Origin: Elusimicrobiota bacterium
GTDB taxonomy: Bacteria; CG03; SLGR01; JBDRKX01
Assembly: GCA_043813605.1 (NCBI GenBank)
Contig: JBDRKX010000047.1
Span: 53,539-117,538, forward strand
Reading direction: 5' to 3'
Length of the DNA stretch: 64,000 bases
Positions within the stretch are counted from its first letter, which is position 1. Every line of letters starts with the position of its first letter. The notes beneath the pieces are model-generated. The model did no database searches. It was not told where the DNA came from and was given only the letters and a program-made list of their open reading frames with translations. The position numbers were made by a program, and so were the translations under genes. Shown here in pieces: positions 1-61,630 of the stretch.

Positions 1-300
1 GCCACAATACCTTTGAATTTCATCAGTTCGTCCCAGCTAAAAGGTTCTGCGAAATAACCCAAGGTTATATGCGGCATTCTTTCAGTGTGTTTTCCCCACT
101 CATCCCTTCTGGATGCTATAGGGTCCGTATTGTCTTCTGCAAGATATGACTGGACTTCCCAGAAAATACCCATTCCGATATCCCAGTTCAGTCCGCTCAC
201 TTCAGCTTCAAATGAAGGGGAGGCAATATCCGAAGCACGCGCCACTTCATCTTCCTTTATACCGCCCTGGGTAGTCAGGTGCAGTAATTCAGGTGCGACA
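1..300 (-). other. 2H phosphoesterase (LigT/CPDase-like) domain with paired H-x-T-x motifs; truncated by the window edge
   Basis: APELLHLTTQGG (verified at 241-300) and RMPHITLGYF (verified at 41-70). Confidence 0.45.
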
Positions 301-3300: not shown

Positions 3301-6300
3301 CAGAACTGCGGATTATTCCTGATCCCGTCATATTTTTCGCCCCTGAGCATGTCATGTAACAATTCAACTATCTTGCCTGTTAATGTTTTATTCCCGGAAT
3401 AATCAGCGCCCGTCTCTATTTCGAATGTCCGCCGGACGAGTGTTTCCAGGACGGCTATCCTCTGGTTTAAAAACTCTATTATTTCTTTTGCATCATCATC
3501 CGGATATCCGGCTTCTTTGATAAAAGCAGAAAAATTATTTTTAATTGATTTAAAATAATTTATCGATTCCTCAAGAGCCTGAATATCGTATGAGTCATGG
3601 GATTCAATACGGGAGACCACATTTGAGTAATAATAAAGAAAGTCCGCAAAATTCATGTTCGTATCGAATCCTGCATCGTTGTCAAAGATAACAGGGACAT
3701 CAAACACTCTTATCGAGTTTGAACCATGCTGGTCCCACTTGCCTATCAAAGCATTAAATACGAGTTGCGCGCTTCTGCCTTTCCTGGAGTCACTGTAAAC
3801 GAGTTCTTCCTTTTTATAGTCCTGGGCGACTCTTGTAAGGAAATATCCTTTTTCACTGCTTCCGACATTTTTCAATTTCCTTGATTCTTCGGAAGAGAGC
3901 GATCTTATCTCTACAGTGTCGACTCTGCCTCTGCCCAAAAGATAGCCCAGCAGTTCCCTTTTGTAATCGTTACGGTTTCTATGATTCCCTATCTTATAAT
4001 GCCCCCCGCGCTTCTTTACGAGAAAAACATTGCCTGCTTCATCAATAACAGCCGGAAACCCCCTGGGATTGCAGTTCTGCCCGAATTTCGCTTCAAGTTT
4101 TTTATTGCCGATCATGCTGTAGCTGTGCGGCGTATCAGACCTGACACCTGATTCTGCCAGTACCGTAATCGGCTCCGAATAGAAAGATATCATTTCCCTG
4201 GCGCGTTCTGCGATTGCTTGTGCGGATACTAAAGCTTCTGTTATCTCCTCATTACCTAGCAACGCATCTCTTATTTGATGATCCGGTATAAGTATTTCCC
4301 AAAGTTCATGACTCAATTTCTTCTCATATACCGTGAGATTGCCGCCTTTTTCTTCTGCCATACCGGCGTCTACGATATACGCTCTCATACCAAGCGATCG
4401 GGTCATCCCTATCATTATGTTTGACGGGTTCCATAGATCGTCAACATAAATACCGCTAAAACTCAGATCTCTCACCAACTGCCTGATAAGCTCGAGATTA
4501 TCCGCATTCAGATCTATACGCGGATCATTTATTGAATGGCCGTAAACCCTTTCTGATACTATATATACAAGCTTATCGGTACGGACGATCTCTATCGGAC
4601 GCGGCGCCAATCCTTCCTTGTAGAGCTCTTCGAGCATCCTGTATTCTTCTTTTGCACTGTTAAAGTAGATCTCTTTGTTAATTATTTTGATGACAAGGTC
4701 TTCATTAAAAGGATGTATGAATACAGTACCGTACTCACCGCTTTTTATGAGTTCGGCATTTCTTGATTCACCCGCTATCTCTACTTTAAGTTCGCTCTCT
4801 GCCTTTTCATAGGAAAGTTTAATTTCTCTAGCAGGTTTTGCCATCGCTTTTGCAGGTCTTTCAGCCATAAACTCTTCAACCTGCCAGGCAAGTGCTTCTT
4901 CCCTTTCTTTGTATGTCTTACCGTTTATCTCTTTAATAAAATTACCCAGTCTGCCTTGGAATATTACGTAGAGTGCATCTATGAGACGGTTTTCAGAATA
5001 TTTGCCGGTAGACTGGGAGTATGTGAAGAAATCATACAGGAATTCAGCCCATAATTCTGAATCAAGATTGCTTATGTTTTCCAGTCTACCTGCTATTCGA
5101 GGTGAGATTTCGGCTATTATCTCTTTTATTTCCGGGAATTTATCATCATATTGTTTTATCAGATTAGCGTAATACTCGCGGGGATATTGTATTTTTTCAT
5201 CAGACGCATTATTTATTAATTCCTCAAAAACGCTATCTTCCGGAGGAGCTCTCTCTTCCAGTAGTCTTTCCTCTCGCACTAACTCCAGTATCTCTTTCAT
5301 CACTGTTCTGAATCTATCAGCCGGGTCTACCGGTTTGTGTATTTTTCGCAGAGGAATAGCCACATGAACTATTGCTGAGCCGTTTCTCTGTGCATTCAGC
5401 GCCCAGGCGCCTTCCGCCTTATACGCTTTATCAGCCATCATTGCTGATAAAACAGCCGGATCCCGCACAAGATTCTTAATAAAATCAGCAGAAAATGCAT
5501 ACTCACCGCCGCCTGCCTGTCTGAATCGGCCGTATAACGGGTAAAGTACCAGATCCATCACGCCTGCATCATCATTCCGGTAATCCCTTATATATGAAGA
5601 ACCTACATACTGTTTGTGATCCCTATATACAGGCTCTAAATACGCTTTTACCCATTCGGGATCGATATTCTCTATATCGCCGTCAAATGTGACCCATGCA
5701 TCAGCTTTCAGGAGATTTACAATCTCCCAACCCAGCATCTGTCCCCAGAATTTTCCTTTGATCGCTCCCGGCTTGATCCATGATACCAGTTCGACATTAT
5801 CCACATTGTCTATTGAACTTCTGTCTATTTGCGACAATGTCTGTTTACTTGGTTTTTCTCCGCTAAGGACGATCATAGCCCTTTTCCCGGGATAATATTC
5901 AGCAAGTCCTTCCAATACCGTATCTATACCATGGTTTATCAACTCCAGGGGTTCTTTATTGTAATTAAGCTGTATGACAATGTCCGCTTTATCAATATCC
6001 ACCACTTTTCTCAATTGTTTTTGGCGGAATCTGCTGAATGTTCTTAATTTGTCTTTATAGTCTGAGAATCTACCCGCTAACTCCTTAGTATTGATCAGCA
6101 TTTCTTCTTCCGGGATCTTTCTGGGAAACAGGCCGGTAAAGAACCTTTTTATTCTCTGGTTTATGGACGCGAATAATGAAACTTCTTCTTTTTCCAGGAT
6201 ATATTCAGGTTCTATTTTTTCAAGTGCATCAACAGATTCTAATTCCACATAATCTTCGGCATCCACATAAAGCGGATTAGATGCAGTAAATTCCGAGAGC

Positions 6301-9300
6301 CTTCCTTTATATACAGGATATCCGGTATCTTCGGCATCACCTGCTTCTGCCCGTTTAACATATACTGCAACTTTGTCCAGCGGTATTTCCCACTTTATAA
6401 TATCGAATATCTGTTTTCTCAATGAGACCATTGCCGGATGCATGTTCTCAAAATGTTCTATTCCGTTAATCCTGATAGATATCAGTTTATCTCCGAATAT
6501 AGGCTCACCGGCTGCATCCAGCCCGAGTGAACCGTTTGAATCGACTATCTTATCATCCAACTGGCTGAATCCTATCAATTTCGCAATATACCTGGCTAAT
6601 CCTGACTCGAAATACCTGTGGAATTGTGCCAGGTAATCAGTCTCCTGTTTAGCACAGCTTATAGAAATCAAATACGGAAAATTCGGATGTTTGCTGGCTT
6701 TGCGCATCATATCCTGCCACAACTGAAGGTCCTTTGATCCCGGCCACAACTGTAATACAAGGTTGGTTCTGCCTGTAAAAGCCTTATATAATTTCCAGAA
6801 CAGGTACTGCCCGGTTAATGTAAGATAGTTTTTCGCGCCCCTGCTGTATCCGTTGAGAGCCGCATTCTGAATAAGTCCCGTCGCAAGTCCCGATTTAAAC
6901 TCATCCGGTTTCAGTTCACCATTTTCATCAAAGAACATAGTCGAGATCATATATGTGGTGAACAGGCCGCCCACGCTTATTCCCATCGGGATTATAATCT
7001 TCTTGTCCGCGAACAGGCCGTCGCCATTGTTCAGATGATCGTATGCCTGCCAGATATGTTCTGCTATGTTTTCCCGCAGGGTCTTTTTTATCGTCTTGAA
7101 TATCTGATCAGGATATGAATGTCCCGCAATGAGTACCGAATGGTTCTTAATAAGATCCAAGCCTGTTCCGCTTATATAGTATATACCGAAAAGCCTGTCA
7201 TAAGAGTATCTCTTGATCCACCCGTGTATAGCATCGAGCTCTATCTTTCCCTGTGTAAAGATTATCGCGGATTCAGTTCCGTCATCAAACCATAATTCAA
7301 GGTCCTCGTCTTCAACCTCTCTTTTCTGTCGAGGGGGAAAAACACTTGCAAATATTTTTTTGATACGGCTGGGTTTGGCAATATCGACCGGGTGGGTATA
7401 TGCAATGATATAATCTTCTACATACTGGACTGTCTTATTGAACGCTTCTATATCTCCGCGGGCATAATACTGCTCCAGGAACAATAGAATACGCTGCACC
7501 TTTGGATCCTCTTTCATTTCAGCATCTTCCACTTTCTTGATGATATCATTGACCTTCCTGCCCAGCATCTTCTTCCTGGCAAAAGTCAGCCAATGCCCGG
7601 GAGCTACAAACCTGAACGTCTTATGCCAAATCTCAACCTGTTTTTCTTCAATATTTACGAAATCGAGCTCATTATACTTCTTGGCGTTGTCCATGGCGTC
7701 CATGAACTGCCTTATTACCTGAGCCGTGCCCCTGTACCTTACATTATCCCCCTGGACATCTTTACCGACAATTACATTATCGTATTCCGAAACATATTGC
7801 TTCATTCCGAGAAAAACAGAGAGCAATGATTCGTCTTCAATATCCCACAGGAAACTGTCTGCCGTAGAATCACCCATTGCCAGTATCATACCTACGGTAT
7901 GTTTTCTCCTGATGAAATCCCTGACGCCGTCAGACTTGTTATAGAGGCTCATCTTCATAAAAGCATCACCGAAACTCGGATAGTACTCGTTTTTGGGAAG
8001 TTCTATTCCTCTTGCCGAAAGTATGCTCAATGCCTCGTTGAGCGCCATCTTTGTGTCTATACTGTCCAGTTTATTGTCATTATCAAGTATTACCAGCTCC
8101 GAATCGAATACCTGTATTTCCGTACTTGAGTATCTTTTTATAGCATTCTTGAATATCTGGTTGACATCGGTATAATTACCCGCTTCTTCCAATGCCGTGA
8201 CAGCTTTTTCAAACACATCCTGTCTGATGATCACATTATTAAACAGTTTCAGGTAAGCGATCGTGAACGCTCTTGCAATTTCAAACTGCATTTTAGGATC
8301 GAATGTTTTTTTTGTGTCTTCAGAAGTCTTTCTTTCAACTATTTTCTCTTTTCCGTTATATGTAAAAGAGGTATTCTGTGCGCCTGAAAGAGATATGATC
8401 TCAAGGTTCTCCATATACTTTTCAGTAACATTCTTTTTCATCAACTCCAGTATAGGCTTAATAACACGGGTATTAACCGCTTCTTTTTCAAATCGGATCT
8501 GCTTTTTGATGTGTTTTTCAGAATCCGGTGAATCGTATATCTTAACAGTCTTGATCTCTTCCGCCTGTGTACCGCTCACAAGAAGCACTTTTATTCCTGC
8601 TTCAAGTGCTTCTACGACAATTTTAAGGTTATCTCCTTCAAGCGGAGAAAGCTCGTCACGGGTAAGCGTCCGGTTAATATCAAGGACGATAGTCCTCAGA
8701 TCTACTTGTCTATCGGATTTTATCAGATTATCCAGCGCACTGGTTTTTTCGGTTATCGGTTCTTTACCCACGATCAACCGGCGATATTTTTTGGCCTGAA
8801 TAAATCTTACCCATGGACTTTCGGATATCTTATTAAAATACAATTCCTCGTCGATATCTGTGGCAGAAGGGATAATATTTACGGCACCGTCATCCACATA
8901 ATAGGCTTTCAGTTCACCGTTGTTTATCTTCCCTATGACTATATTATCCGGTTTCCAGCCGAAATCTTTCACATTTACATTGTTATCTATCAGCCCTCTT
9001 ATCAATCTACGTACCAGCTCCATTTCTTCCGTTGTCATCGAGCCGGCTTTTATATTCAATGTCTTTCCTACAACCCGCTCTGAGACAATATACTTGAAAG
9101 AACCGGCAAAACCTTTACTGATTATTCCGGGAGACAATCCCAATCCGGACAGTTTTTCAAGCATCCTTACTTCTTCAATAAAAGTGTTTTCAATACTGTC
9201 TTCGACATCCCACCTGCCTATTTTTATTACCCTGTCCGGATAGAACGGATGGACAAAAGCGCCTCTTGAAATATGTTCCGCCTCTTTTCTGATACCTTCC

Positions 9301-12300
9301 ATTTCTATAATCAGCCGGTTTTGACTGTCATCATATTGAAGAACGGGTTCTTCGGCAGGTTTTTCTGCAACTATTGCAAGCGGTATCTTTGGAAGGAAAT
9401 CGAATCTAGTGGCTATATGCCTGTTATAGAAATGTACAGATATGTTTCCTATGGAATGTAATAGCGCTAATATTCCGGCTACAGCTATTGCCGGAGTAAT
9501 CCCCTGACTTAAAAGAGTCAGGGCTACCGGTACAGCCATAGCCATCGAATGGACCGCAAGGATTATCCGGTCCAGCCGCGTAGCTTTTGCGGGTGGAGCG
9601 TTTATATCATAATACACCCGCCTGTGGGCGATGAGGAAGATGATCGTAGCAATAGAACCTGCGCCTAATGATGCCAGTACATTGTTGATATCAAAAGTGC
9701 TTCCAAGTAACGCCAGCCCGCCTGCAACAAATCCGAGCCCGTATGTCTCTGCGGCTTCGATCAATCTCCGGCCGATTATACTATGCACCCATCTTTCGGG
9801 CCAGTACGGACTGATTGCCAGCGGAGGTTTCCCGTCATATATCACTTCTTGAGAAAGCGTTTCCAGCCGCCGGGCTTCAAGGTATTCAAGTAATGTATGC
9901 CGTAACATAGATACTCTTTCAGCAAGGTCGACAGTAGTCTTGTTCAACTCGGCTATCAGAAACTTGACCTTATCTATATCCAGCCCTTCCCCGTTTTCTA
10001 TCCAATAATCAGAAAGGTCCCTGTTATCGATCACATTGTCTACTTCTCCCTTTATGACCTGTTCGAACGAGGTGAGTGTTTCCCTGATACTTCTCTTCCT
10101 GCCTGTCTCTGTAAGCCCGCGGTACATACGACGCGACAACCTTATCATACGGTCTTCTTCGAGATCATCAAAGTCCGCCTGGATAAAGAATTTCCTCACA
10201 CTTATACCTTCGGGTATTATCTCATCCATTTTCTTGCTTATCGCAAAAACGCCTTCAGCTATTACCAGTTTCTGTCCAGGCTGGAGTTTGACTGTTTTAT
10301 ATCCCACCCGTTTTCTCAGATTCCGGTCGTAATCAGGTATTTGGGTTTCTTTTCCTGCGAGAAGATCGCTGATATTCTTTTCAAGAAGTCCAAAATCATA
10401 AGGCCCGTTTTCAGTTGATTCAGCCACCAGGACAAACCTGGGATCGTTTTTATCAAAATTATATATACCCATACCTATTAACAGGTTACCCTCAGCTATA
10501 TCTTCGACCATCATGGTTTTCCCCGCGCCGGACAGGCCCCCGAGCAGTACAAGGCTGCCGTCAGGCATATCATCCGTAAGCCGCTTGAGTAAACCATCTT
10601 CATACGATATCTTTTGCGGTATTTTTGCAGCAGGTTTTACTTCTTCAGCTTCAGCAGTTTTTTCTGGAACTGCAGGATATTCTTTCCCTTCAGGCGTTCC
10701 CATAGTAACAAGTACTTTATGCCGTTTCCCGTCATTGACGAGGAGAATACCTTCTGCCGTTTCTATCCAGACTCCGTCCATTTCAATTTTTCCGATACCG
10801 GAGGAAACTACATCAGGATTTATCACTTCGATTTCATAGACAGATTTACCATATCTTTTTAAAACCTTAAACCCTTTTGCTCCCCACTCTTCGGGAAGCA
10901 CCGGATCGATAAACAGCCTGCTGCCGTCCCTGAATTTTAATCCCAGCATACTTTCCACCATTATCCTGAAGATCCAGCCGGCAGATCCCGTATACCCTGT
11001 CCATCCCGCCACGCCCTCGGGACTTATATCAGCAGCGGCGACATACGGCTCGCCCCTATAGTTTCTGTCCTTTGCATGTTCCGCAGGATTCAGAACCCTG
11101 TATACTTTCCATAATAGATCAGCGTATTTCCTTTGATCCTTGGAGCCGGTATCCTGACGCGCGATTATTGAAAGGGCCTGCACCATCCATACTATACCAT
11201 GGGTATATTGCCCGCCGTTTTCCCTGTCGCCGGGGTAATATTTTCCAAGATGCCCTTCCGGAAAATCTTCATTTCCGTTCACAGGTCTATCAAAAAGCCT
11301 TATGATATTTAGATTTTCATCATATAGTTCATCAAGCGCTGTCATAAATGCTTTTTTGGCAAGCTTTTCACCGACCGCACCGGATATTACGGACCAGGCT
11401 TGAGGTAAAGCAAATAGTTTTCTTATCCCGATACCCTTATCAGTAAAAGCCCTGATAAACCATCTCTTTCTCAGTCCTTTTTTAGCCAGTGCATATTTTT
11501 CTATATTTTTCGAGAGTTCACTAGCTCTTGATTTATATTCTCCGGCAGTTTCACTATCGCCTTTCTTTTCTGCCAGCGCGGCAAAATCCATCAGGGTCTT
11601 ATACAGAAAAAATGCAAGCCAGACACTTTCTCCTTTGCCTTTGATTCCTACTGCATCCAGCCCGTCGTTCCAGTCACCGGATCCTATCAAAGGAAGTCCG
11701 TGTTCCCCCATCCTTTTATTGATGACAAAGTCAATGGACTTTTTCGCGTGTCCATACACTGAAGCCGTCTGCTCTGGATCATCCGAAGAAATAAATTGCG
11801 TGACATAGTCTTTTTCATCCGCATTAAGAAGCCTGCCGCTCAGATACGGTATTTTCTCATCAAGGATATCCATATCACCCGTTACATCGACATAGTGCGC
11901 CAGGCCGTATGACAGCCACAGAAGATTATCCGATATACGTGTTCTTATTCCCAGGCTGACTTCCTTGCCATTTTCATTTATTCCGTAATCATGCCACCAG
12001 TGAAGGACATCTCCTTCAGGGAACTGCCTGGCCGCACACTTTATAAGATGTTCACGGGCCCTCTTGATATCTTCAGGAGTATTTGATGAAGCCAATGTCA
12101 GCACTGTCTGCAACTGATCCCTGAAACCAAAGGCACCTCCGGGCTGATAGAAACCGGTCTTTCCGAGATAATGCCATACAACTGCCTGATAACGCATCCA
12201 ATCTATCATCTTATTGAAGTTTTTATCAGGTGTTTCAACAACAAGATCATTCAGATAAGAATTCCAATTTCTCTGCCCTTTATTAAAAGTCTCACTAATA

Positions 12301-15300
12301 CTGGAAGGATCACTGTATTTTTTCATCAGTTCAGCAGCTCCGACTCCTGCTGCATCGTTTTCCGTCATGCCAAGTATATAAGTTACCCTGGACTTATACT
12401 CATTTTTTTCATTAAGGTTAAGCCTCACTGTTATCCCGGAAAACGGATCTGCCGCTGTCCTGAACACATCATTTCCCGCTGTAATAACAGAAGCGTCTTC
12501 CGCTATTACATTATGAAATGCTATCGAGTCAGGAACCAGCGCATCGGGATTGCGCGCCAATATTGTATCGTGTCTAACCTCAGTTTTCGTGTTATCTACG
12601 GCATTATTATAATCCCTGCTTAATGCCCACTTAAGAAAACTGCCTATCTCTATCTCTTTACTGCCCTCAGTTTTATCACCAAGATATTCGATATCGATAT
12701 CCCAGAATTCGACAGGCTCATTGTCGCCGGAGACGAACATCGTCATAGAGATCTTCCAGGTGTCTTTCTTATCATATATGTATTTGATATATCCCTGGCC
12801 TATTTCAACCTTATATACATTTTGATCCCTGTCTGGCTTAGGATTTGCAGCTATTGACCATTCCCGGCCGGTCTGGATGTCTTTTACAAGAACGCCTCTC
12901 AGAGGTTCTTCTGTAACTATATCCGGTTCGGCCGCAGTTACTCTCTTCTGCTGGGCATTACCATTAAAACTGAACACCGACCCTGCGGCGGTAGCGGCAA
13001 AACCGTATCCCGATTCATTGGCCACCACCTGGGTATAGGGTTTACCCGTTGCAAAAGGATCTTCTAATGTATAGGCGCGGCCGTCTTCTGAAAATATTCC
13101 GGCGGCTTTCTTTTCTTCCTTCGGTTCAGGGATTTCTCTTTTCATCCTCCATTGACGCCGGGCATGGGATGCGAACCAATCCATATATTTTTTCAAGCGC
13201 ACTTCCCGGAGAACTGCTTTATGAGTTTTTTCGCCTGCCGCCTGTTCCTGCTCTTTCAGATAATTATCATCCCTGTATTTGCCCAGCAGGCTTTTTACTT
13301 CCTTTCCATTTGAAGCCCTTCCGATCATAAATGTCATGCTTTTTTCACTGCCAGCCTTCAGTCTCATTTTCTTTGACAGGGCGCCGGCAGGATCCCTGAC
13401 ATAACTGGTCCCGGATATCAGTCCTTTTATCATTGCTATGGGTGATGACAGATTTCTAAGGCGCCCTATGAAGTTCATCCTGCTTTCAGCATGGCTGTCA
13501 ACTTGCCCGTCTCCGCCTATAGCGAAGAAGCCGAAAGGCTGCTGGTCCTGAGCATCTCCTGTAACCCTGCGGCGGGCGGTTATTACTTTCAGCTCTTTAT
13601 CGTAAGAAGCCCCTAACGTGAGTTTTCTGAATATAGTCGCATCCTTCCAGGCTACCATATGATCCATAATCCATTCAAGGTAACCGATAATATCCAGTTC
13701 CCGGTCAGTACCTGTATTGTTTATAAGCTGCACTTCCCATACCTCAACCGGATCATTCTTCGATACAAACCCGCTAACCTCAACTTTTATCTCACCTTCA
13801 GGAAGTTCCAGAGTACCTGTAATAATTATCTTTCCGTCCTGTACTTTCGTATCTAACGGCTTCAGCCCGACCGGAAGCATCTCACCGGTAGCCACGTCTT
13901 TTATGTAAAATATGCGGTTGTAATAAAGAGCTTCTTCTCCGAGCCAACTCGAACCGCCGCCTTCAGATGGAGCATGGATCGTATAACCGTGATGTCCTTC
14001 AAGAGCATCAGGCAGTTCAACTCCTACCTGCTCCTGCCTGTACTGGTATTGATAGTCATAGGCATTAGCTATATCGCTTTCAACCTTTTCTTCTTCTACC
14101 GCGTATTCGGATTGAGGCGTATTTAAAATCCGTTCAACGATACCGATTCGGGAGACAGCTGATAAGAGTGCTTTTTCTGTCTTTTCATCCAAACCTGCTC
14201 CTTCTATATCTTTTTTACTCCCTGTCACTATATAATACGGTTTCTCCTCCCGGATCAATCCTTTATCAATAAGGGCCGGTATACCTTCCAGTTCATCTTC
14301 AAATACAGCTCCCCTGTTAAAAGGATTGGTATGGAATAACTCCTGCAGATACCCGCCGCTCAGCAGATTGAATATTGAAATAGCTCCCATACCTGCGGAA
14401 TGGTGCGCATATATTCTGGGCGTTATTATTTTTGTTCCATCTTCTTTAAATTCAACCGACTCATAATATCCTACAGGTGTCTTCAATCCCATCTTTTCAT
14501 ATTTTCTTAAAGCCTTAAGGGATTCTTCCGAAGCCCACGGAGCCTCCATCTGGGCCGCATACGGAGAATATACTTTACGATTGATAACTTTACCGTCAAT
14601 GTTCTGCGCGTTACCGGCGACACCTATCGGACCGTAACCGACCCAATCCCCATTATCCTTCGGATCATAGGCTGTCTCGGATTGTCCAAAAACACCTTTC
14701 ATGGAGGCCGCAAGTTGTCTCCGGGTTGTTACAGAATGGACTTTGCTCAGCATTTCGGAATCATCTTCCCGCATAATGATCCCGGGAAGCTTGACTTCAA
14801 ATGATGAGCCGTGCCACGGCAGAGCAGGGACACCGGCTCCTTCCTCATTGGTACCCTTGAGAAATCTCTTCAAGTGTTTCCAGTGATGCTCCGGCAGCTG
14901 GCCTTCCATGATTCCAAGCATACTCGCTATCCTGTTTTCACTTAAAAGAAGGTCATAATAACCGTCACTGCCATGAAGGCCACTTTCAAAACCTTCAGTT
15001 TTCCTGATGTCAGCGTGCTGCCCGACGAAATGAAGGAGTCCGTTTTCTTCATTATAAAGCCTGTCGAACCGCATATCCCTGACTATTTTCAATATCCGCG
15101 CCTGGAGTTCGGGATCGGATATACTGCCTTCCGCCATTAACATAAATGCCGCGAAATTACCGTTATCGACCGTAGATATGGCCGCTACAAAATCATCGGG
15201 ATGGATGATCTTTTTCTGTTTATTATTTCCATTCTTATACCAGCTATCCTCGTATACATATAAATATCGCGTATTGTACCAGTTATATAGATGTCCCTGG

Positions 15301-18300
15301 TATTTGGGCAGTTTCTCAATAACGGCAACGGTGTTCCGCAGCCTTTTCAGGGCTTCTTCTTCTGTTATACTGCCGCTCTTCCATTCCATGACAGCAGTTA
15401 AAATATTTAATCCGATATTTGTAGGAGATGTCCTATGGTCTATTTTACTTCTGGCTTTCATAATCACATTGATTTTATTTTCCGCCCAGTTTCTTGTCAC
15501 AGGCAGCTTTGTAATAAAACTCAGTATCCGGATTTTAAGTTTATCACTGCCGGATAAGTTTAAGATAACATTATCCGGCGTCAGGAAATCGACGCAGGTC
15601 TCGTTAAGAGACCCTGTTTCAGGATCTACTTCACTTATGCCGGTCTTCGGATCGATCTCGGCAGGCAGTTTTTTAATATCTTCAAAAGTTGCATTGGCAA
15701 AAAGGTTATGATACCTGAAAGCCTCATTTAGTATTTCCTGATATGATCTGCGGCCGGCACGGCTCAACTCCGGTATTTTTCTCCCGGCTTTCTCAGGCAA
15801 AGACGGGATCGCAGTAACTGAGGCAGGTTCTTTTTCAGAAATTATGACTGTTTCAGGTATCTTAAATTCCTTCCCATCTCTTGTCCTGAATTTGGCCTGA
15901 TTTATTATTCTAACAGCGCTCTCCGGGCCGCCGCCGATTGTTATCGGCGCATCATCTTCATCACCTACGGATATTGCTCCCTCCAGGTTCAATATACGCC
16001 CGTCATTTCCAAACCCGTTTAAATATTTATCTGCTATGATTAAAATATTCTTATCACGGAGATCAGACAGATTATTTCTTTTCTCAACTGCTGCTTTAAA
16101 AACTTTAAAAGCTTCCAGTTTATCTGAAGTACAAATGTCCAGATTCTGATCTTGTGAAATATATATTTTTAAATCGTTTATCCCTTCAAGCTCTAACTCA
16201 TAACTCATTACATCTAAAGTCAATTTGTTGACGATACTTCTAAACTCCGTTAGAGTTAAGCCGGTTCCCCGTTCTAAATATTCTTTAATTTTGATGTTAC
16301 CTTTCAGGCTGAAAGGAACTTTGGTTTTATCTATGATTTGCTGTATTCTATTAACCTCATCTATACTAACTGTATCAATAAAGCCTCCAATCAAACTTAT
16401 ATTATATTTATTCCCTTCTTCTTCTTCTGCAGTTAACTCATACTTCGTTATTAAATTATTTATATACTTGACATCATTTTCTTTAAATTTTATATTTTCA
16501 ACGTGACCGTTATTTTCCAGTCTTGAACCATTAGAAGTGAAAATATAAAGATTCGCCCTGTCTCCCGTAATATACGGCAGTATATTTTTCCTGAGTGATT
16601 TTATTCCCCTGCCTGAGGCCAGCGCCACAGGTATTCCCATATTGAGAAGAATAGAGATTACATCTGCTATTTCTTTTGAAATCCCGGGAGTTAAAGTCAA
16701 AGTCCCATCTACATCGAAAAAAGCTCCGTGTTTGACCGCTTTTAAGGAATCCTCAAGCAGATTTACAGCGGGTTTTTCTTTTGCCGGTTTGACGAGTTTC
16801 ACGCCGAATTCTCTTTCTATATCTTCAAGCGTTATCCTGGCAGCTGCGCAGTTCGCTTCGCCTGCCCCGTAAGTTATGTGGAATATATTGTCATTTTTAT
16901 TAAAAACGGCTGTCGGATAAACCTGTTTCAGATCCAATTTCAGTAAACCCTTGAACCGTTTATATTTGGAATACCCGTAGATGCCTATAGCTTCAGCTAT
17001 TTCAGTATCTTTTGAGGGATATAGCAGCGGTTTTGGCTGGCCTACAAGCTTCAGGTTTTCATCAAAACCGGCCACCTCAGTAATATATACCCGATCGATT
17101 TCTCCGGCTTCCTTTTCATAAAACGCACGGTGAAGAAACATAAGATATTTTATTTTCCTTCCCTCAACAGGTATGAGCGGCGAGCCGCTTCCTACCCATT
17201 GGCCGTCAGGCGCATATATAACCGTATCTTTATCAAGGTTGAAACTATCCCAGAATTCAGCTCTTATTTTTTCATCAGTGATCAGATCTATCAGTTTTTC
17301 CGCGGAACCGATCTTTGTTATCTGTATGTCAGGTTTTATTCTGTGAATAAGTATAATGTTCCCGTCTTCCATCTGCTGGACTACGGCATTTTTGTGGTAA
17401 TAATCATTAAATCTGCTGCTCCCTATCGGCCCCTGATACTCAAATGTCTTCAGATCTCTGCTGAGAGCTACTGCCGGCCCTAATAGCTCATCCCATCCTG
17501 TTTCGGCATTACGTTCCACTTCGACATAAGTTACACACCACCATTTTTCACCTTTTATGGTTATTTGCGTTAGTCTCGGATTTTCAAAACTCCTGATCCT
17601 GCCACCTACAATTTCATCGTCAGCGGATATAAGCACCCTTAATGACTTTTTATCTACCTCGTATTCAGAAGTATCGCTGTTATAGGTGACATCGCCTATC
17701 CCTATAACGGAAGAAGTATCCTCATACCACGCTCTGAACACGATTTTATCATCTTCTATGTGCGGGTTTATTACACCCAGTATTTTACCTCTGGCGCTAA
17801 ATTCTGGGATGTCTTTTATATCATCTAATCCAAGTATTATCTCTTCACCGGGTTCTTTACCGTACCGTTCAGTATGGAATTTCTCTTCCATCTTCTTCAG
17901 GGTATCCTTATCCGTTACCCCGTAACGGCCATTGATAAATGCTCTTGCAATTGTCCTTATTTTTTGTAATAACCTGCTTATTGCCGGTTTCGGATAAAAT
18001 GTGATCCTCTCCTCAGGCATGATTATACGCTTCACGACTTGAGGCTTTTCGGCTTCAGCCCGCTTAATATCAATGGTTTCGATCACACTTTCAAGATGCA
18101 GTGAATGTTTACTGTTTAAATCGACAAGATAATCCCTTACATTATCTATATTATCCGCGACGACTATTCCTTTCTGCAATATGGTATAAAGAAATTCTGC
18201 TGATAAACTGTGCTCGTTTAATTCATGTTCGACCGCAGACAACAGTTTTACAGCATTTATGATATTTTGCTCAGGATAATCTTTGAATATTCCATCGATC

Positions 18301-21300
18301 TTTTCATCAGTTATTCCCAATTCCTGTAATTTATAACTTACTGCATATCGTTCATCTACATCAACTTTCAATTCTCTGATAATGTCATACATCGAGACCC
18401 TTGCCGCAGCGCAGTGAATATCTCCCGCGCCATAAAAGATATGAAGGACACCGTCTTTTACATAGCCTTCCGGAAAAGTATTCTCCAGATCAAGCATGTT
18501 TCTTGATTTAAATGCTTTATAAGCTTCGTATCCGAACAGACCGATAGTATCTGCCATTTCATAATCTTCTTGCGGAACAATAAATGCTTTAGGCTTGCCA
18601 ATTAATTGTAAATCTTTGTCAAGGCCGACAATTTCCCCTACATACCGGCGCCTTTGCTCTCCCTCTTCTTCTACTCTGAATGCCCGGTGAAGTGTAAAGA
18701 GATACTTTACATTGCCAAAATTATTTACAGGGATCAGTTGTGATCCGCCTCCCAGCCACTGTCCTTCAGGCGCTGTTAGAATTGCATCTTTGTCAGCATC
18801 AAAGCCTTTCCAGAATTTATTTCTATAATCTTCATCATGCATTAAACGATATACATCCTGAATAGAACCTATTTTCGTTATCTGAATGGCCGGTTTCAGC
18901 CTGTGTATCAGGACTATGGTTCCGTCATCAAGCTGCTGGAGGATACCGTCTTTGTGGTCCCTCTTTGAATAATAAGGGGCGCCTGTCCCAAGCACTCCAC
19001 GGTCATCAATCGTTTTTAAATCACTGCTTAGCGCTATCGCCGGGCGTACGGACCATTTACCCTCTAACTTTACCGCTTCGGTATATGTAACACACCATTT
19101 CCCGTCGATTTTAGTTAAACGCGGATCTTCACAAGAAAATGATTTAAAACCATATTTGTCTGCATCTTTTGGTGATATAAGCATCCGTATCGAGCCTTTT
19201 ATTATCTCGAACTCTTTGAGTTCCTTGTTGTAATCGAGGTCAGCAGCGCCTATTGAGGATACTCCGTTCGCATACCAGACACGGAAAACTATTTTATCGT
19301 CCAATACACCCGGATTAAATACACCGATTATTTTGCTCTTGATATCAAAATCAGGAAGCGATTCGATATCTTTTATACTAAGTACCAGTTTTGAATATCT
19401 TTCCGTATTGAAAGATTCTTCCGATTCTTCCAGCTTCTGTCTGTCCGTTACCCCGTATTCAATAGTTGTTTCTTCGATCATCTCAGCGACTACGGCAGGT
19501 TTTTCAATTGAAGCAACAAGATCTGCTATTATCGAACTCTGCTCGGCACCTGATATTTTTTCGAGCATTATTCCCGTGATATCTCTTCCTTCTAATACAA
19601 GGTAGCCCCTGTTATCACCATAGTGCTCGGCATGTCCGACATCCACATTGATTATCAGCTTATTCTTTTCATCATAGACTCTTATCCTATCCCCGATTTC
19701 AGACAAGGGCGGCGTATGGGCAACTATCTGCTTCAGCTCCGCAATTCCAAAATAGGTTACAATATCCCCGTTGTAATCCGCCCAGAATAAGCCGCCAGTT
19801 CCGCGTCCGCCCCGTGACTCACCCTGATTGAAAATATGATCCCTATAGCTGGCTTGCTCTATTCCGGCCTTGAAGCGTTCATTAAATTCTTCGTTTAATT
19901 CAGATGCCGGACGGCCTTGTGATAATTCATTGACCACTCCACCGTGCGCGAATATCATGCCGCCGGCATAATACGTTGCCTGCAGCCTGTCATATGCAAT
20001 ATCATCAAGCATATCAGCCAGCATACCTTTAATAACAGGATGGTCAGCTAATGCCTTAAACTCCTGTTCATCCTTAACAGATTTAATTCCTATGCTTTTT
20101 ACCAATCGATCACCGCCGTCAGCGAAGAAGGCAGGGGCGTAGTTATAATATCTGTTAAACAATTCCTGTTCTGCATCAAAATTAAAGGATGCCTGCAATT
20201 CCATGTTCATCTTATGGAACGCTTGAATAAACTCCAGCTCGTGGTTGCCGAGCAGTCTTACTACCTTTCCGCCCTTTGCTTCGGCTTTTTCCTGGAGATC
20301 CCTTATAAATTTAACCGCCTTGATACCATCCGGACCGCGGCCTATCATATCTCCCATCTGAACCAGTACAGTATCACCGCCGATCCAGTTATCTTTATCA
20401 TCTATCAGACCTGCGTCTCTAAGGTCATGCTTAAAGGCATCTAACGAACCTTCAATATCGCCGATAACGACATGCCTTCTATCAACAGCTTCATCCATCG
20501 TCGCTATACTGCGCGTGTCACCTCGGGTCCAGCCTTCCCGGGCGTTTTCTAATTGAATTCTTTTTGCTTGAACGTCTTCCCTTGTTATAGTGCCGGCGGT
20601 TTCAACCGGTTCTCTGAAATATGGTTCTGATATTTCAGGTATAAAATCCGCATATTTATCACCTAATATCAGTCTGGTTAATGCATAATCACTGCCCAGC
20701 ACTTCCCATAACTTAAGTACTGACTCCTTTGTAACTTTCTTATAATCAATAAGATCTAATTTATTGGAAGCAAAAGGCCAGTCTCCTTCATTAAGATAAG
20801 AGACAGGCAGGATAAAAATTCCTAAATTTTCATATTCGCGGCCGCCTTTTTGAATAAATTGATCCTCAGCTATACTTACTATTGCCGGCATACCGTAGAT
20901 ATCAGCAATAACAAACCTATGCATAGATCCCCCATCTCCAATAGCAGATGACTGATCAGGATAAATCTTTCCGCCTACACGCCTATCGTCATCTATATCA
21001 ACTACAACAGTAGTAAAACCTTTACCACTCAGTATTTTATTGACCTCATTGGCATACTTCTCGCAAACAGCCGGATATTCGATGGAACTTCTATAGCCCG
21101 TCAATTTTACTTCTTTCTCTGATTTTTCTTTCTGTATTGCCAGAAGGCCCATAACTTCTTTGATTTTGGATATACGTTCAGTATTCAGACTATTGCCTGT
21201 TATCTTTTCATATATATCTATGAACTTTTCCAGATCCATATTGGAATATAAATGATACACATAAGTTTCTTTTCTAACTATATCCTGGGCTAATCTAATT

Positions 21301-61574: not shown

Positions 61575-61591
61575 TTCTGTTTAAAATACAT

Positions 61592-61630
61592 AAAAAAAAC
61601 CCGCACTCTGTTCATCTTAAAACAAAGTGC
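61592..61630 (-). terminator. Rho-independent terminator read on the minus strand: 8-bp GC-rich stem CCCGCACT/AGTGCGGG, 18-nt loop, followed by an 8-T tract
   Basis: + strand aaaaaaaacccgcactctgttcatcttaaaacaaagtgcgggttt. On the + strand only TTT follows the stem, so it is effectively unidirectional. It ends 18 nt before the giant ORF start codon. Confidence 0.7.

What the first reader, a model, noticed from the sequence alone, without database searches (positions are those of the whole stretch)
10900..16000. Cellobiose-phosphorylase/cyclic-glucan-synthase-like GH94 region
The GDWND catalytic signature, an HWWHDYG motif and a preceding glucoamylase-like region match the architecture of GH94 phosphorylases and the C-terminal half of cyclic beta-1,2-glucan synthases. 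This adds beta-glucan chemistry to the alpha-glucan modules elsewhere in the same protein.
Basis: partly seen in the sequence, partly recalled or inferred. Interest (0 to 1): 0.65.

Follow-up and report, generated by a model that had tools for sequence, protein, structure and literature searches.

The report
Glucan-synthase-like cassette without its synthase
Inside a single bacterial gene of more than 20,000 codons sits an intact copy of the 'cyclase plus phosphorylase' half of the enzyme that makes cyclic beta-1,2-glucans, without the sugar-polymerising half; this portable two-enzyme module has never been characterised biochemically.

Summary
GDWND (nt 11664-11678) and HWWHDYG (nt 11982-12002) lie on the minus strand inside a strong GH94 match (Pfam catalytic domain E=1e-70, two supersandwich stretches E=3e-53), preceded by an (alpha/alpha)6 'glucoamylase-like' domain.

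The segment is not a cellobiose-phosphorylase type. [quoted passage not shown] All 14 catalytic and substrate residues checked are conserved.

Three Cgs parts are missing: the N-terminal/TM/GT84 synthase half (no profile hit anywhere in the 20,526 visible residues), the RFL subdomain, and the GH189-specific helical insertion.

The cassette (aa 15268-16994, nt 10599-15779) belongs to an uncharacterised GT-less clade. That clade occurs as stand-alone ~1,600-aa proteins and also inside other long multi-enzyme proteins (P0135, 4,212 aa, 57% identical).

It lies in a stop-free frame of at least 20,526 codons, of the 'multi-enzyme metabolic' giant-protein type described for Omnitrophota.

Most likely function: beta-1,2-glucan phosphorolysis or elongation plus transglycosylation, probably on the cytoplasmic side. 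Verdict: a new variant of a known kind, of moderate interest.

The parts
3..61574 (-). Giant ORF (at least 20,524 codons from the ATG at nt 61574; it runs off the left end of the window, so the C-terminus is not seen). It hosts the cassette.
   Evidence: It is the only stop-free frame over 300 codons apart from one 572-codon frame upstream. ATG at aa 3. A terminator-like hairpin plus T-run lies immediately upstream. About 20 distinct Pfam domains all fall in this one frame.
10599..15779 (-). The CY-GH94 cassette as an evolutionary unit (aa 15268-16994).
   Evidence: BLASTP: P0135 residues 1752-3484 align to giant aa 15268-16994 at 57% identity over 1,751 columns. Outside this unit the two proteins share only the N-terminal head domain.
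15465..15779 (-). N-terminal extension of the cassette (aa 15268-15372). It is conserved with P0135 (motifs ...IDPK-GIS-VDP-TG...DFLTPDNV...). Function unknown.
   Evidence: It has low model confidence (pLDDT <50 for model residues 1-48).
14319..15464 (-). Cyclase-like (alpha/alpha)6 domain (CY, GH189-like), aa 15373-15754. Key residues: D15472, acid/base E15548 (nt 14937-14939), E15595, nucleophile E15635 (nt 14676-14678), Y15649, H15726/H15727.
   Evidence: Cgs-CY profile E=2.6e-61, matched in two pieces that skip model positions 131-261. PDB 8wy1 E=8.7e-23 by sequence. Foldseek 8wy1 E=8.9e-19, TMq 0.75. Residues checked, against PMC10834661 and PMC10901819.
14139..14309 (-). 57-aa linker insert (aa 15758-15814) between CY and GP1, shared only with P0135.
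13218..13913 (-). First GH94 beta-supersandwich domain (GP1), aa 15890-16121.
   Evidence: Pfam PF06165 best stretch aa 15889-16087. GP profile positions 43-281. Model strands at residues 45-275.
12291..13139 (-). Second beta-supersandwich domain (GP2) plus helical linker, aa 16148-16430. The 26-residue junction before it (aa 16122-16147) replaces the RFL subdomain of Cgs.
   Evidence: The GP profile skips model positions 282-468. Model residues 305-342 are disordered and the second sandwich spans 347-592. Gap counts.
10941..12266 (-). GH94 catalytic (alpha/alpha)6 domain, aa 16439-16880. Key residues: R16487/D16488 (GFRD), HWWHDYG (nt 11982-12002), W16637 and catalytic acid D16639 (GDWND, nt 11664-11678; the D codon is nt 11664-11666), E16787/Y16792/H16794 (RENGGQYTH), YTGSAGW.
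   Evidence: Pfam PF17167 E=1.3e-70. 44% identity to the AtCgs GH94 core, E=2.6e-100. Residue roles from PMC10901819 and PMC5309861.
10701..10940 (-). C-terminal beta-sheet domain of the GH94 fold, aa 16881-16960.
   Evidence: The GP profile matches through to its last position. Model strands at residues 1067-1145.
16131..16721 (-). Upstream neighbour domain in the same ORF: a Cof-type HAD-IIB phosphatase-like domain (aa 14954-15150).
   Evidence: Pfam Hydrolase_3 E=1.5e-7. NCBIfam TIGR00099 E=7e-6, below its cut-off.
10023..10550 (-). Downstream neighbour domain: a weak uridine-kinase/PRK-like P-loop domain (aa ~17011-17186).
   Evidence: NCBIfam NF004018 E=5.7e-7 and Pfam PRK E=0.007. Both are below their curated cut-offs.

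Best explanation
Nt 10599-15779 (minus strand) encode a complete and apparently catalytically competent 'cyclase + phosphorylase' cassette. [quoted passage not shown] It consists of a GH189-like retaining beta-1,2-glucanotransferase domain followed by a two-sandwich GH94 inverting phosphorylase. Because it has two sandwich domains, as in Cgs and LpSOGP, the catalytic pocket can probably form within one chain, so no dimer should be needed (inferred). The cassette has no GT84 glycosyltransferase, no Cgs TM helices, no RFL subdomain and no GH189 helical insertion, so it cannot polymerise glucan from UDP-glucose in the way Cgs does. It is one module of a membrane-anchored multi-enzyme protein of more than 20,526 aa, and it probably faces the cytoplasm. 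Most likely mechanism (inferred by homology, not shown): the GH94 domain carries out reversible phosphorolysis at the non-reducing end of beta-1,2-glucan chains (Glc_n + Pi <-> alpha-Glc-1-P + Glc_n-1), and the cyclase-like domain disproportionates or cyclises the same chains through a glycosyl-enzyme intermediate on E15635. Whether the net flow in the cell is catabolic (glucan to Glc-1-P) or anabolic (Glc-1-P to glucan) is not resolved. Shown here: homology, architecture, residue conservation, fold, and recurrence of the cassette in other proteins. Inferred: substrate, activity, topology and direction.
For: Best solved relative is A. tumefaciens Cgs, E=1.7e-151, collinear over CY, GP1, GP2 and GP3. 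The GH94 core alone gives E=2.6e-100 and 44% identity. Pfam GH94 domains score far above their cut-offs. All 14 residues taken from the literature are conserved in the giant and invariant across the 19 sequences aligned: the Cgs/TiCGS cyclase residues D1104, E1300/E1356, E1400, E1386/E1442, Y1456 and H1536/H1537, and the GH94 residues R, D, W, the catalytic D2528, and E, Y, H of subsite -1 and the phosphate site (PMC10834661, PMC10901819, PMC5309861, PMC11842490). The nucleophile Glu is a GH189 feature: the inverting glucanase Groups 1-3 are reported to have no acidic residue acting on the nucleophilic water (PMC12102758). The AlphaFold models are confident (pTM 0.81 and 0.85). Their best structural matches are the TiCGS cyclization domain (E=9e-19) and the Cgs GP region (E=1.5e-63, TMq 0.79). 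The two-sandwich LpSOGP covers the GP model at TMq 0.69, and single-sandwich CBP at only 0.59. Absence of GT84 and RFL: profile HMMs from 60 full-length Cgs, run with filters off, find nothing in the 20,526 aa. The same three deletions are shared with a clade of GT-less relatives. The cassette recurs at 57-86% identity in other long proteins with different flanking domains, which argues for a functional, selected module. Topology: no hydrophobic segment other than one inside the HAD fold lies between the Bac_transf membrane helix (aa 11694-11712) and aa 17301, and the neighbouring domains use phosphate, sugar phosphate or nucleotide chemistry.
Against: No activity or substrate was tested. Beta-1,2 specificity rests on homology to Cgs (44% identity in the core, about 30% overall). 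The cyclase domain lacks about 130 residues that the literature calls conserved only within GH189, so its product spectrum (cyclic or linear) may differ from TiCGS. Similarity to the characterised beta-1,2-oligoglucan phosphorylase LpSOGP is weak at sequence level (E=3e-6). In Cgs the GH94 catalytic acid is dispensable for function while the domain itself is structurally required (PMC10901819), so conserved residues do not prove that catalysis is the role selected for. The C-terminus of the ORF lies outside the window and could hold a GT. Topology comes from a crude hydropathy scan plus the known orientation of Bac_transf enzymes, not from a dedicated predictor. The stand-alone relative P0002 has a clear signal peptide, which raises the possibility that some family members work outside the cytoplasm. 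Gene neighbourhoods of stand-alone relatives show no beta-1,2-glucan utilisation genes.
Confidence: 0.65

Rival explanations
1. It is a cellobiose/chitobiose-phosphorylase-type GH94 enzyme acting on beta-1,4 disaccharides (the other half of the reader's title).
For: CBP and ChBP structures are significant hits (E=8e-46 and 1e-38; Foldseek TMt 0.82-0.84). The GDWND, GFRD and QYTH motifs are family-wide.
Against: Cgs scores more than 100 orders of magnitude better. CBP covers only one sandwich plus the barrel of the model (TMq 0.59 against 0.79 for Cgs). The module has two sandwich domains and a fused beta-1,2-glucan-clan (alpha/alpha)6 domain, which CBP/ChBP lack. It groups with the GT-less Cgs-like clade, sister to full-length Cgs, in the tree of Cgs-type sequences; no CBP/ChBP sequence was included in those trees.
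Confidence: 0.03
2. [quoted passage not shown] The polymerising GT would be encoded in the unseen C-terminal part of the giant ORF, or supplied in trans by another protein.
For: The ORF runs off the window, so part of the protein is unseen. The ORF does hold a membrane-embedded sugar transferase (Bac_transf, E=5e-29). One head-domain relative (L081, Ca. Omnitrophus magneticus) matches the Cgs N-terminal profile at E=8e-16.
Against: There is no GT84/NTD match in the 20,526 visible residues with filters off. The RFL subdomain, which contacts the N-terminal domain in Cgs (PMC10901819), is deleted, as expected if that partnership no longer exists. The whole GT-less clade, including complete stand-alone 1,530-1,630-aa proteins and the complete 4,212-aa P0135, lacks GT84. 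Bac_transf is a phosphoglycosyl transferase, not a processive beta-glucan synthase (established knowledge of the family).
Confidence: 0.1
3. The cassette is a non-catalytic glucan-binding or scaffolding module, as is partly true of the GP region in Cgs.
For: In A. tumefaciens Cgs the GH94 catalytic acid is not essential, while truncating the domain abolishes function (PMC10901819).
Against: Every catalytic, subsite -1 and phosphate-site residue of both domains is invariant across a clade whose members are only 30-40% identical overall. That is hard to explain without selection on catalysis.
Confidence: 0.05
4. The cassette is active but on a different glucan or glycan than beta-1,2-glucan, having diverged in specificity after losing the GT84 half and the GH189 helical insertion.
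For: It sits on a long branch (37% identity to the stand-alone clade, 30% to Cgs). About 130 residues of the cyclase domain are missing. GH94 is known to span beta-1,2, beta-1,3 and beta-1,4 specificities (one search hit list; PMC8140972, title and abstract seen).
Against: The substrate-recognition residues named for TiCGS (W1109, Y1456) and the subsite -1 residues are invariant. All characterised members of the (alpha/alpha)6 clan to which CY belongs are specific for beta-1,2-glucan (PMC12102758).
Confidence: 0.12

Closest known systems
[quoted passage not shown]
   Same: The order of domains is the same: CY, GP1, GP2, GP3 and the C-terminal sheet. The GH94 core is 44% identical. All catalytic residues of both domains are conserved. 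It is the best sequence and fold match.
   Different: The cassette has no N-terminal domain, no six TM helices, no GT84 synthase, no RFL subdomain and no helical insertion in CY. It is embedded in a protein of more than 20,000 aa rather than forming a 2,800-aa stand-alone enzyme.
TiCGS cyclization domain, founding member of GH189 (PDB 8wy1; PMC10834661)
   Same: It is the best structural match of the CY model (E=9e-19). The nucleophile Glu, acid/base Glu, E1400, His-His pair, W1109 and Y1456 equivalents are all conserved.
   Different: The cassette's domain is about 130-140 residues shorter between alpha4 and alpha5, which is the feature described as conserved only within GH189 (PMC12102758). 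Sequence identity is only about 18-20% in the structural alignment.
1,2-beta-oligoglucan phosphorylase (LpSOGP 5h3z, LiSOGP), GH94
   Same: Both have a two-sandwich architecture with a catalytic barrel. Subsite -1 and phosphate residues (R630, D631, W758, D760, E917, Y922, H924) are conserved with identical E-x4-Y-x-H spacing. Foldseek TMq is 0.69 and TMt 0.71.
   Different: Sequence similarity is very weak (E=3e-6; 14-15% identity). SOGP has no fused cyclase domain.
Cellobiose / chitobiose phosphorylases (CBP 3qde, 2cqs; ChBP 1v7v), GH94
   Same: Same catalytic barrel and the same motifs (GFRD, DWND, QYTH), and significant alignments.
   Different: They have a single N-terminal sandwich and form their active site across a dimer (PMC5309861). 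They are much more distant (E=1e-35 for the core). They have no cyclase domain.
GT-less 'CY-GH94' proteins in public MAGs: stand-alone (P0001-P0011, P0139, P0141) and embedded (P0135, P0138, P0140). All are uncharacterised.
   Same: They share the three deletions relative to Cgs and the same conserved residues. The giant's cassette falls in this clade, paired with P0135 (57% identity), which also has the 57-aa linker insert and the N-terminal extension.
   Different: The stand-alone forms are complete 1,530-1,630-aa proteins labelled as Deltaproteobacteria or Bdellovibrionales MAGs, and one has a signal peptide. Here the cassette sits about 15,000 residues into a giant ORF.
'Multi-enzyme metabolic cluster' giant proteins of Omnitrophota (bioRxiv 10.64898/2026.06.07.730766; West-Roberts et al., 10.1101/2023.11.21.568195)
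   Same: Many distinct enzyme Pfams tile one polypeptide anchored by TM helices, with sugar-metabolism, kinase, HAD and HD content. The N-terminal head domain is shared with hundreds of Omnitrophota loci.
   Different: Neither preprint mentions GH94 or cellobiose phosphorylase (West-Roberts main text; 2026 preprint main text), and the one held supplement of the 2026 preprint lists no PF17167, PF06165 or PF10091. The closest relatives here carry 'Elusimicrobiota' labels rather than Omnitrophota, so the taxon is unsettled.

Membership tests
GH94 (CAZy glycoside phosphorylase family) | Significant match to the GH94 catalytic (alpha/alpha)6 domain model, above the curated threshold | tested here: met
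   PF17167 scores 238.7 bits against a cut-off of 27, E=1.3e-70, covering profile positions 2-420 of 420.
GH94 (CAZy glycoside phosphorylase family) | Catalytic acid Asp in the DWND motif, plus the subsite -1 and phosphate-site residues (R/D of GFRD, W, E, Y, H) | tested here: met
   R16487, D16488, W16637, D16639, E16787, Y16792 and H16794 align with AtCgs D2393/D2528 and LpSOGP R630/D631/W758/D760/E917/Y922/H924.
GH94 (CAZy glycoside phosphorylase family) | N-terminal beta-supersandwich, helical linker, (alpha/alpha)6 barrel and C-terminal beta-sheet fold | tested here: met
   AlphaFold model with pTM 0.85 shows this domain order. Foldseek hits to GH94 structures run from E=1e-63 to 1e-30.
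GH94 (CAZy glycoside phosphorylase family) | Phosphorolytic activity with inversion, producing alpha-glycosyl-1-phosphate | not testable with these tools
   This needs an enzyme assay.
[quoted passage not shown] | GT84 glycosyltransferase domain that initiates and elongates the chain | tested here: not met
   A profile of the N-terminal ~955 residues of 60 Cgs, run with --max and E<=10, finds no hit in 20,526 aa. phmmer against the PDB finds no match upstream of Cgs residue 1014. No GT2-type Pfam was found. The unseen C-terminus of the ORF could not be tested.
[quoted passage not shown] | Six TM helices embedding the GT domain in the inner membrane | tested here: not met
   No hydrophobic segment lies within or adjacent to the cassette. 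The nearest are at aa 11694-11712 and 17301-17378.
[quoted passage not shown] | Cyclase (CY) domain followed by the GH94 GP1-GP2-GP3 region | tested here: met
   The match to Cgs residues 1014-2790 is collinear. CY profile E=2.6e-61 and GP profile E=4e-218.
[quoted passage not shown] | Rossmann-fold-like (RFL) subdomain between GP1 and GP2 that contacts the N-terminal domain | tested here: not met
   The RFL profile finds no hit. The GP profile skips positions 282-468. There are 26 residues here against 82-83 or more aligned residues in Cgs. The model shows a disordered linker at that point.
GH189 (beta-1,2-glucanotransferase / Cgs cyclization domain) | Retaining catalytic pair: nucleophile Glu (TiCGS E1442) and acid/base Glu (E1356), with supporting E1400 and H1536/H1537 | tested here: met
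   E15635, E15548, E15595 and H15726/H15727 are conserved. In alignment A2 the two catalytic Glu, the E1400 equivalent and the first His are invariant columns, and the second His is nearly invariant (PMC10834661).
GH189 (beta-1,2-glucanotransferase / Cgs cyclization domain) | Long alpha5 helix and additional helices between alpha4 and alpha5, described as 'conserved only within GH189' (PMC12102758) | tested here: not met
   The CY profile skips model positions 131-261. There are 8 residues here against 105-167 in most full-length Cgs. Foldseek TMt to 8wy1 is only 0.57 while TMq is 0.75. The whole GT-less clade shares this deletion.
GH189 (beta-1,2-glucanotransferase / Cgs cyclization domain) | Closest relationship to GH189 rather than to the inverting glucanase families (GH144, GH162, GH192-194) | tested here: inconclusive
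   GH189 structures are the best hits (E=1e-18 against 1e-12 or weaker for GH192/GH144/GH162), and they are the only SGL-clan hits by sequence. However, GH193 (Group 2), the nearest neighbour of GH189, has no solved structure and was not compared directly.
GH189 (beta-1,2-glucanotransferase / Cgs cyclization domain) | Transglycosylation of beta-1,2-glucans without hydrolysis, giving cyclic products | not testable with these tools
   This needs an enzyme assay.
Cellobiose/chitobiose phosphorylase subgroup of GH94 | A single N-terminal sandwich domain, with the active site formed across a homodimer | tested here: not met
   There are two PF06165 stretches and two sandwich domains in the model. 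CBP covers only TMq 0.59 of the model. Oligomeric state itself cannot be tested here.
Omnitrophota-type 'multi-enzyme metabolic' giant proteins | More than 10,000 aa, with many distinct enzyme Pfams and none dominating, anchored by TM helices | tested here: met
   At least 20,526 aa in one frame. About 20 different Pfam families. About a dozen hydrophobic segments in 7 clusters. The class is described in 10.64898/2026.06.07.730766.
Omnitrophota-type 'multi-enzyme metabolic' giant proteins | Encoded by a member of phylum Omnitrophota | tested here: inconclusive
   The head domain has 560 confirmed loci, mostly in Omnitrophota MAGs, at 24-28% identity. The closest relatives (35-86% identity) are labelled Elusimicrobiota or 'Deltaproteobacteria' MAGs. 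The source contig was not found in any collection.

The most novel reading that the evidence does not exclude
The GT-less cassette could be a self-sufficient, nucleotide-sugar-independent cyclic (or linear) beta-1,2-glucan synthase. In this reading the GH94 domain runs in reverse, building chains from alpha-Glc-1-P, and the cyclase domain closes or disproportionates them. The Glc-1-P would come from alpha-glucan breakdown by other modules of the same giant polypeptide or by neighbouring genes. That would amount to a single-protein route converting storage alpha-glucan into beta-1,2-glucan. The association with alpha-glucan enzymes is seen twice: GDE+GH77 in this ORF, and GlgE plus a GT4 gene upstream of P0135 on the same strand (GlgE about 2.3 kb away, with two genes between; P0135 itself carries an APH-type kinase domain).
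Probability: 0.15. Interest if true: 0.75.

Novelty: new variant of a known kind. Interest (0 to 1): 0.5.

Why it matters
Cyclic and linear beta-1,2-glucans matter in symbiosis, pathogenesis and osmoadaptation. The only known route to the cyclic form is the 2,800-aa Cgs, in which a UDP-glucose-dependent GT84 domain, a cyclase and a GH94 phosphorylase work together.

This analysis shows a distinct clade in which the cyclase-phosphorylase pair has been separated from the synthase. The pair has lost the parts that dock onto the synthase (the RFL subdomain and the helical insertion) but keeps every catalytic residue. It is used both as a stand-alone protein and as a portable module in very long multi-enzyme proteins of uncultured bacteria.

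That gives enzymologists a defined, expressible target of about 1,730 aa for a possibly new activity: either beta-1,2-glucan salvage to Glc-1-P, or glucan synthesis without a glycosyltransferase.

It also provides one of the few modules in a 'giant' bacterial protein whose chemistry can be predicted at residue level. Because phosphorylases need phosphate and sugar phosphates, it adds a constraint (cytoplasm-facing) to the open debate about where these giant proteins act.

Tried and rejected
1. Source identification. Exact-match scans with a 47-mer from the GDWND region found nothing in GTDB genomes, JGI metagenomes or IMG/VR, so the source contig and the rest of the ORF could not be recovered.

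2. Word-indexed protein search. With the whole cassette as query it returned nothing above 36% identity, and I first concluded that the lineage was absent from public data. The exhaustive search corrected this by finding relatives at 62-86% identity.

3. Gene neighbourhoods of three stand-alone relatives. They showed no conserved operon and no beta-1,2-glucan utilisation genes, so they gave no functional lead.

4. Upstream ORFs. The two ORFs at nt 61612-62163 and 62281-63990 have no Pfam match and do not help with taxonomy.

5. First structure-input alignment (A1). MAFFT scattered the query tail across the GH94 columns. I discarded it and cut the query at the domain end (A2, A3).

6. Recent horizontal acquisition of the cassette. 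Rejected: its GC3 of 0.434 equals the ORF mean of 0.432.

7. 'Glucoamylase' as a functional label. Rejected: PF10091 is a misnomer for the beta-1,2-glucanase clan, and the best fold matches are the Cgs cyclase and beta-1,2-glucanases.

8. Literature. No paper in the held library describes Cgs homologs lacking GT84. This is a limited search and does not prove that none exists.

9. P0122. It could not be looked up on its contig.

Full report
**1. What is at the coordinates**

The window is almost entirely one reading frame. On the minus strand there is no stop codon from nt 61580 down to nt 3, which is 20,526 codons, and the frame runs off the left end. A likely ATG lies at nt 61574, directly after a terminator-like hairpin and T-run. 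The finding's interval is therefore a segment, about aa 15,200-16,900, of a giant protein.

HWWHDYG is at aa 16527 (nt 11982-12002) and GDWND at aa 16635 (nt 11664-11678).

**2. Is it GH94?**

Yes. Pfam gives Glyco_hydro_94 at E=1.3e-70 (238.7 bits, cut-off 27, full profile length). It gives GH94_b-supersand at E=3.2e-53 in two stretches. Upstream there is a sub-threshold 'Glycoamylase' PF10091 match.

[quoted passage not shown] The match is collinear from the cyclase domain through GP1, GP2 and the catalytic domain. Cellobiose phosphorylase reaches only 8e-46, and the isolated TiCGS cyclization domain 8.7e-23. The catalytic core alone gives E=2.6e-100 and 44% identity to Cgs.

**3. Residue-level check**

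I took the defining residues from the literature:
- For the Cgs GH94 domain: the catalytic acid D2528 and D2393 (PMC10901819).
- For GH94 subsite -1 and the phosphate site in LpSOGP: R630, D631, W758, D760, E917, Y922 and H924 (PMC5309861).
- For the cyclization domain: nucleophile E1442, acid/base E1356, E1400, H1536/H1537, and substrate residues W1109 and Y1456 (PMC10834661). The AtCgs equivalents are E1300, E1386 and D1104 (PMC11842490, PMC10901819).

In alignments with stand-alone relatives and full-length Cgs, all of these are conserved in the giant: D15472, E15548, E15595, E15635, Y15649, H15726/7, R16487, D16488, W16637, D16639, E16787, Y16792 and H16794. They are invariant across 19 diverse sequences.

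The nucleophile Glu is informative. The inverting beta-1,2-glucanase Groups 1-3 are reported to have no acidic residue acting on the nucleophilic water (PMC12102758). Its presence here therefore points to GH189-type retaining chemistry.

**4. What is missing**

Homology to Cgs begins at Cgs residue ~1014, the start of the cyclase, and nothing upstream matches. I built profile HMMs from 60 full-length Cgs and searched the whole 20,526-aa frame with filters off:
- The N-terminal/TM/GT84 profile gave no hit.
- The RFL profile gave no hit.
- The CY profile matched in two pieces that skip model positions 131-261.
- The GP profile skipped positions 282-468, which is the RFL.

Direct gap counts agree. 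At the cyclase insertion the giant has 8 residues where most Cgs have 105-167. At the GP1-GP2 junction it has 26 residues where Cgs have 82-83 or more. The segment therefore cannot be filed as a Cgs.

Its cyclase domain also lacks the helices between alpha4 and alpha5 that PMC12102758 describes as conserved only within GH189. For that reason I call it GH189-like rather than a GH189 member.

**5. Structure**

Two AlphaFold models were built with 49-sequence alignments.

The CY model (aa 15330-15757; pLDDT 75.7, pTM 0.81) matches the TiCGS cyclization domain best (E=8.9e-19, TMq 0.75, TMt 0.57) and the Cgs cryo-EM structures (TMq up to 0.78). Beta-1,2-glucanases of GH192, GH144 and GH162 follow.

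The GP model (aa 15815-16960; pLDDT 81.5, pTM 0.85) has two beta-sandwiches, a helical linker, an (alpha/alpha)6 barrel and a C-terminal sheet. A disordered linker sits where the RFL would be. It matches the Cgs GP region over its whole length (E=1.5e-63, TMq 0.79). The two-sandwich LpSOGP gives TMq 0.69, and single-sandwich CBP/ChBP only ~0.59.

LpSOGP is monomeric because its extra sandwich completes the pocket within one chain (PMC5309861). I infer the same for this cassette, which would suit a domain buried in a giant polypeptide.

**6. Relatives**

The word-indexed search found the nearest relatives at 35-36% identity. They are complete stand-alone proteins of 1,530-1,633 aa with the same three Pfam domains, some labelled Deltaproteobacteria or Bdellovibrionales MAGs. 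About 2,800-aa Cgs proteins ranked below them.

In a tree, the giant's cassette is sister to this GT-less clade: 37% identity to it, against 30% to Cgs.

The exhaustive search of 1.84 billion representatives then found closer relatives that the first search had missed:
- P0135: 4,212 aa, a complete gene on a JGI metagenome contig.
- P0136: 66% identical.
- P0163: 86% identical, NCBI 'Elusimicrobiota bacterium' MAG ABIH89.
- P0138 (2,347 aa) and P0140 (3,664 aa), both with the cassette internal.

BLASTP shows that P0135 aligns to giant aa 15268-16994 at 57% identity, and otherwise only through the N-terminal head domain. After the cassette, P0163 continues into a domain that lies upstream in the giant. 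The cassette is thus a discrete, portable unit (nt 10599-15779) whose neighbours differ between proteins.

In the updated tree the embedded versions (giant+P0135; P0138+P0140) branch basal to the stand-alone proteins. Only the giant and P0135 share the 57-aa linker insert. The cassette's GC3 equals the ORF average, so it is not a recent arrival.

**7. Surroundings**

The giant frame carries many other domains:
- an HD domain;
- a DUF3141/PHB-depolymerase-type hydrolase;
- a LOG-like domain;
- two Metallophos domains;
- an Rce1-like membrane protease;
- Bac_transf;
- kinase-like domains;
- a Glucosamine_iso/6PGL-like domain;
- a weak GH130-like match;
- a Cof-type HAD phosphatase just upstream of the cassette;
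- a weak PRK/uridine-kinase-like P-loop domain just downstream.

A hydropathy scan finds seven TM clusters. Between the Bac_transf membrane helix (aa 11694-11712) and aa 17301 there is none, apart from one segment inside the HAD fold. The catalytic domain of Bac_transf enzymes faces the cytoplasm (established knowledge of the family), and the domains in this stretch use phosphate, sugar phosphates or nucleotides. I therefore infer that the cassette faces the cytoplasm, as all soluble domains of Cgs do (PMC10901819).

The N-terminal ~500-aa head domain defines a large family: 560 confirmed loci, mostly Omnitrophota MAGs, with several per genome. Many of their ORFs run beyond the 10-kb flank. 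The closest head-domain relatives (35-41% identity) carry Elusimicrobiota or 'Deltaproteobacteria' labels.

A June 2026 preprint already describes 'multi-enzyme metabolic cluster' giants in Omnitrophota, with a sugar-metabolism module and membrane anchoring. The main text of neither that preprint nor West-Roberts et al. mentions GH94, and the one held supplement of the 2026 preprint lists none of the cassette's Pfam accessions.

**8. Mechanism**

Shown here: homology, architecture, conserved catalytic machinery in both domains, confident folds, and recurrence under selection.

Inferred: the GH94 domain reversibly phosphorolyses beta-1,2-glucan from the non-reducing end, yielding alpha-Glc-1-P. 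The cyclase-like domain transglycosylates the same chains via E15635 (nucleophile) and E15548 (acid/base).

Without GT84 the cassette cannot start from UDP-glucose. It either salvages beta-1,2-glucans to Glc-1-P, or builds them from Glc-1-P. Phosphorylases usually run catabolically in cells (general knowledge), so I lean towards salvage and remodelling, but the evidence does not settle the direction.

The anabolic reading is the most novel one that remains open. It is mildly encouraged by the cassette's repeated association with alpha-glucan enzymes: GDE+GH77 in this ORF, and GlgE plus a GT4 gene upstream of P0135.

**9. Verdict**

The refined description is a Cgs-type cyclase-phosphorylase cassette without the synthase.

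It is a member of GH94. It is GH189-like, but it fails one structural criterion of that family. It is not a Cgs. It is a new variant of a known kind. The host giant ORF belongs to a class that has recently been described.

Interest is moderate. The finding gives a concrete, testable enzymological lead rather than a new principle.

Noticed in passing
window 3-61580 (minus strand): The whole window is essentially one stop-free frame of 20,526 codons that runs off the left end. It carries about 20 different enzyme domains, seven TM clusters and only 0.2% cysteine. It fits the 'multi-enzyme metabolic cluster' class of giant proteins described for Omnitrophota in 2026.
   Followed up: partly
window ~59250-61574 (minus), aa 1-775; loci L005-L084: The N-terminal 'head' domain has invariant QD-H-NY--Q and GGFH motifs and a weak ChaN/Tiki-like Pfam match. 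It defines a large paralogous family: 560 confirmed loci in GTDB genomes, mostly Omnitrophota, with four or more copies in the 1.43-Mb chromosome CP070780.1. Each copy heads a long protein with different enzyme domains. Its function is unknown.
   Followed up: partly
window ~37500-41489 (minus), aa 6698 to ~8000: The GDE_N/GDE_C + GH77 (glycogen debranching and 4-alpha-glucanotransferase) block has clearly higher GC (0.50) and GC3 (0.55) than the ORF average (0.43 for both). This suggests it was acquired more recently than the rest. The HAD domain (nt 16131-16721) is unusually AT-rich, with GC3 of 0.31.
   Followed up: no
L085 (JGI 3300031344 Ga0265316_10000402), genes at 4411-7667 and 10001-22639: P0135, the closest complete relative that carries the cassette, has a GT4 glycosyltransferase gene and a GlgE (maltosyltransferase) gene upstream on the same strand (GlgE ends about 2.3 kb before it, with a 71-aa ORF and a radical SAM gene between). 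P0135 also contains an APH-type kinase domain. This is a second case of alpha-glucan enzymes accompanying the beta-1,2-glucan cassette.
   Followed up: no
P0163 residues 242-440 versus window aa 13230-13416 (nt ~21333-21893): In the 86%-identical relative P0163, the domain that follows the cassette is homologous (34%) to a region about 2,000 residues upstream of the cassette in the giant. Domain order is therefore shuffled even between close relatives.
   Followed up: partly
P0136 residues 257-443: A relative 64-70% identical to the cassette carries a ~187-aa insertion inside the GH94 catalytic domain, immediately after the HWWHDYG motif. In the giant, only an 8-residue loop longer than in Cgs sits at that point.
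   Followed up: no
P0002 (L003 10001-14791): One stand-alone GT-less relative has an unmistakable N-terminal signal peptide (...FSTSTFA/QK). This is unexpected for a phosphorylase and suggests that some family members act in the periplasm or outside the cell.
   Followed up: no
L081 3007-7806 (Candidatus Omnitrophus magneticus JYNY01000344.1): An ORF on a head-domain locus (downstream of the head-domain match, in a different frame) matches the profile of the Cgs N-terminal/GT84 half at E=8e-16. GT84/GT2-like modules therefore do occur near or within proteins of this family, though not in the visible part of this ORF.
   Followed up: no
window 61592-61636 (minus): A GC-rich hairpin (AACCCGCACT ... 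AGTGCGGGTT) followed by eight T residues overlaps the stop codon of the upstream 183-aa ORF and ends 18 nt before the giant ORF's ATG. The giant gene appears to start its own transcription unit, and no obvious Shine-Dalgarno sequence is visible.
   Followed up: no
window ~26000-27400 (minus), aa 11392-11856: A membrane-embedded block combines an Rce1-like CAAX-type protease domain with a Bac_transf phosphoglycosyl transferase (E=5e-29). It is the only glycosyltransferase-type domain detected in the visible ORF.
   Followed up: no
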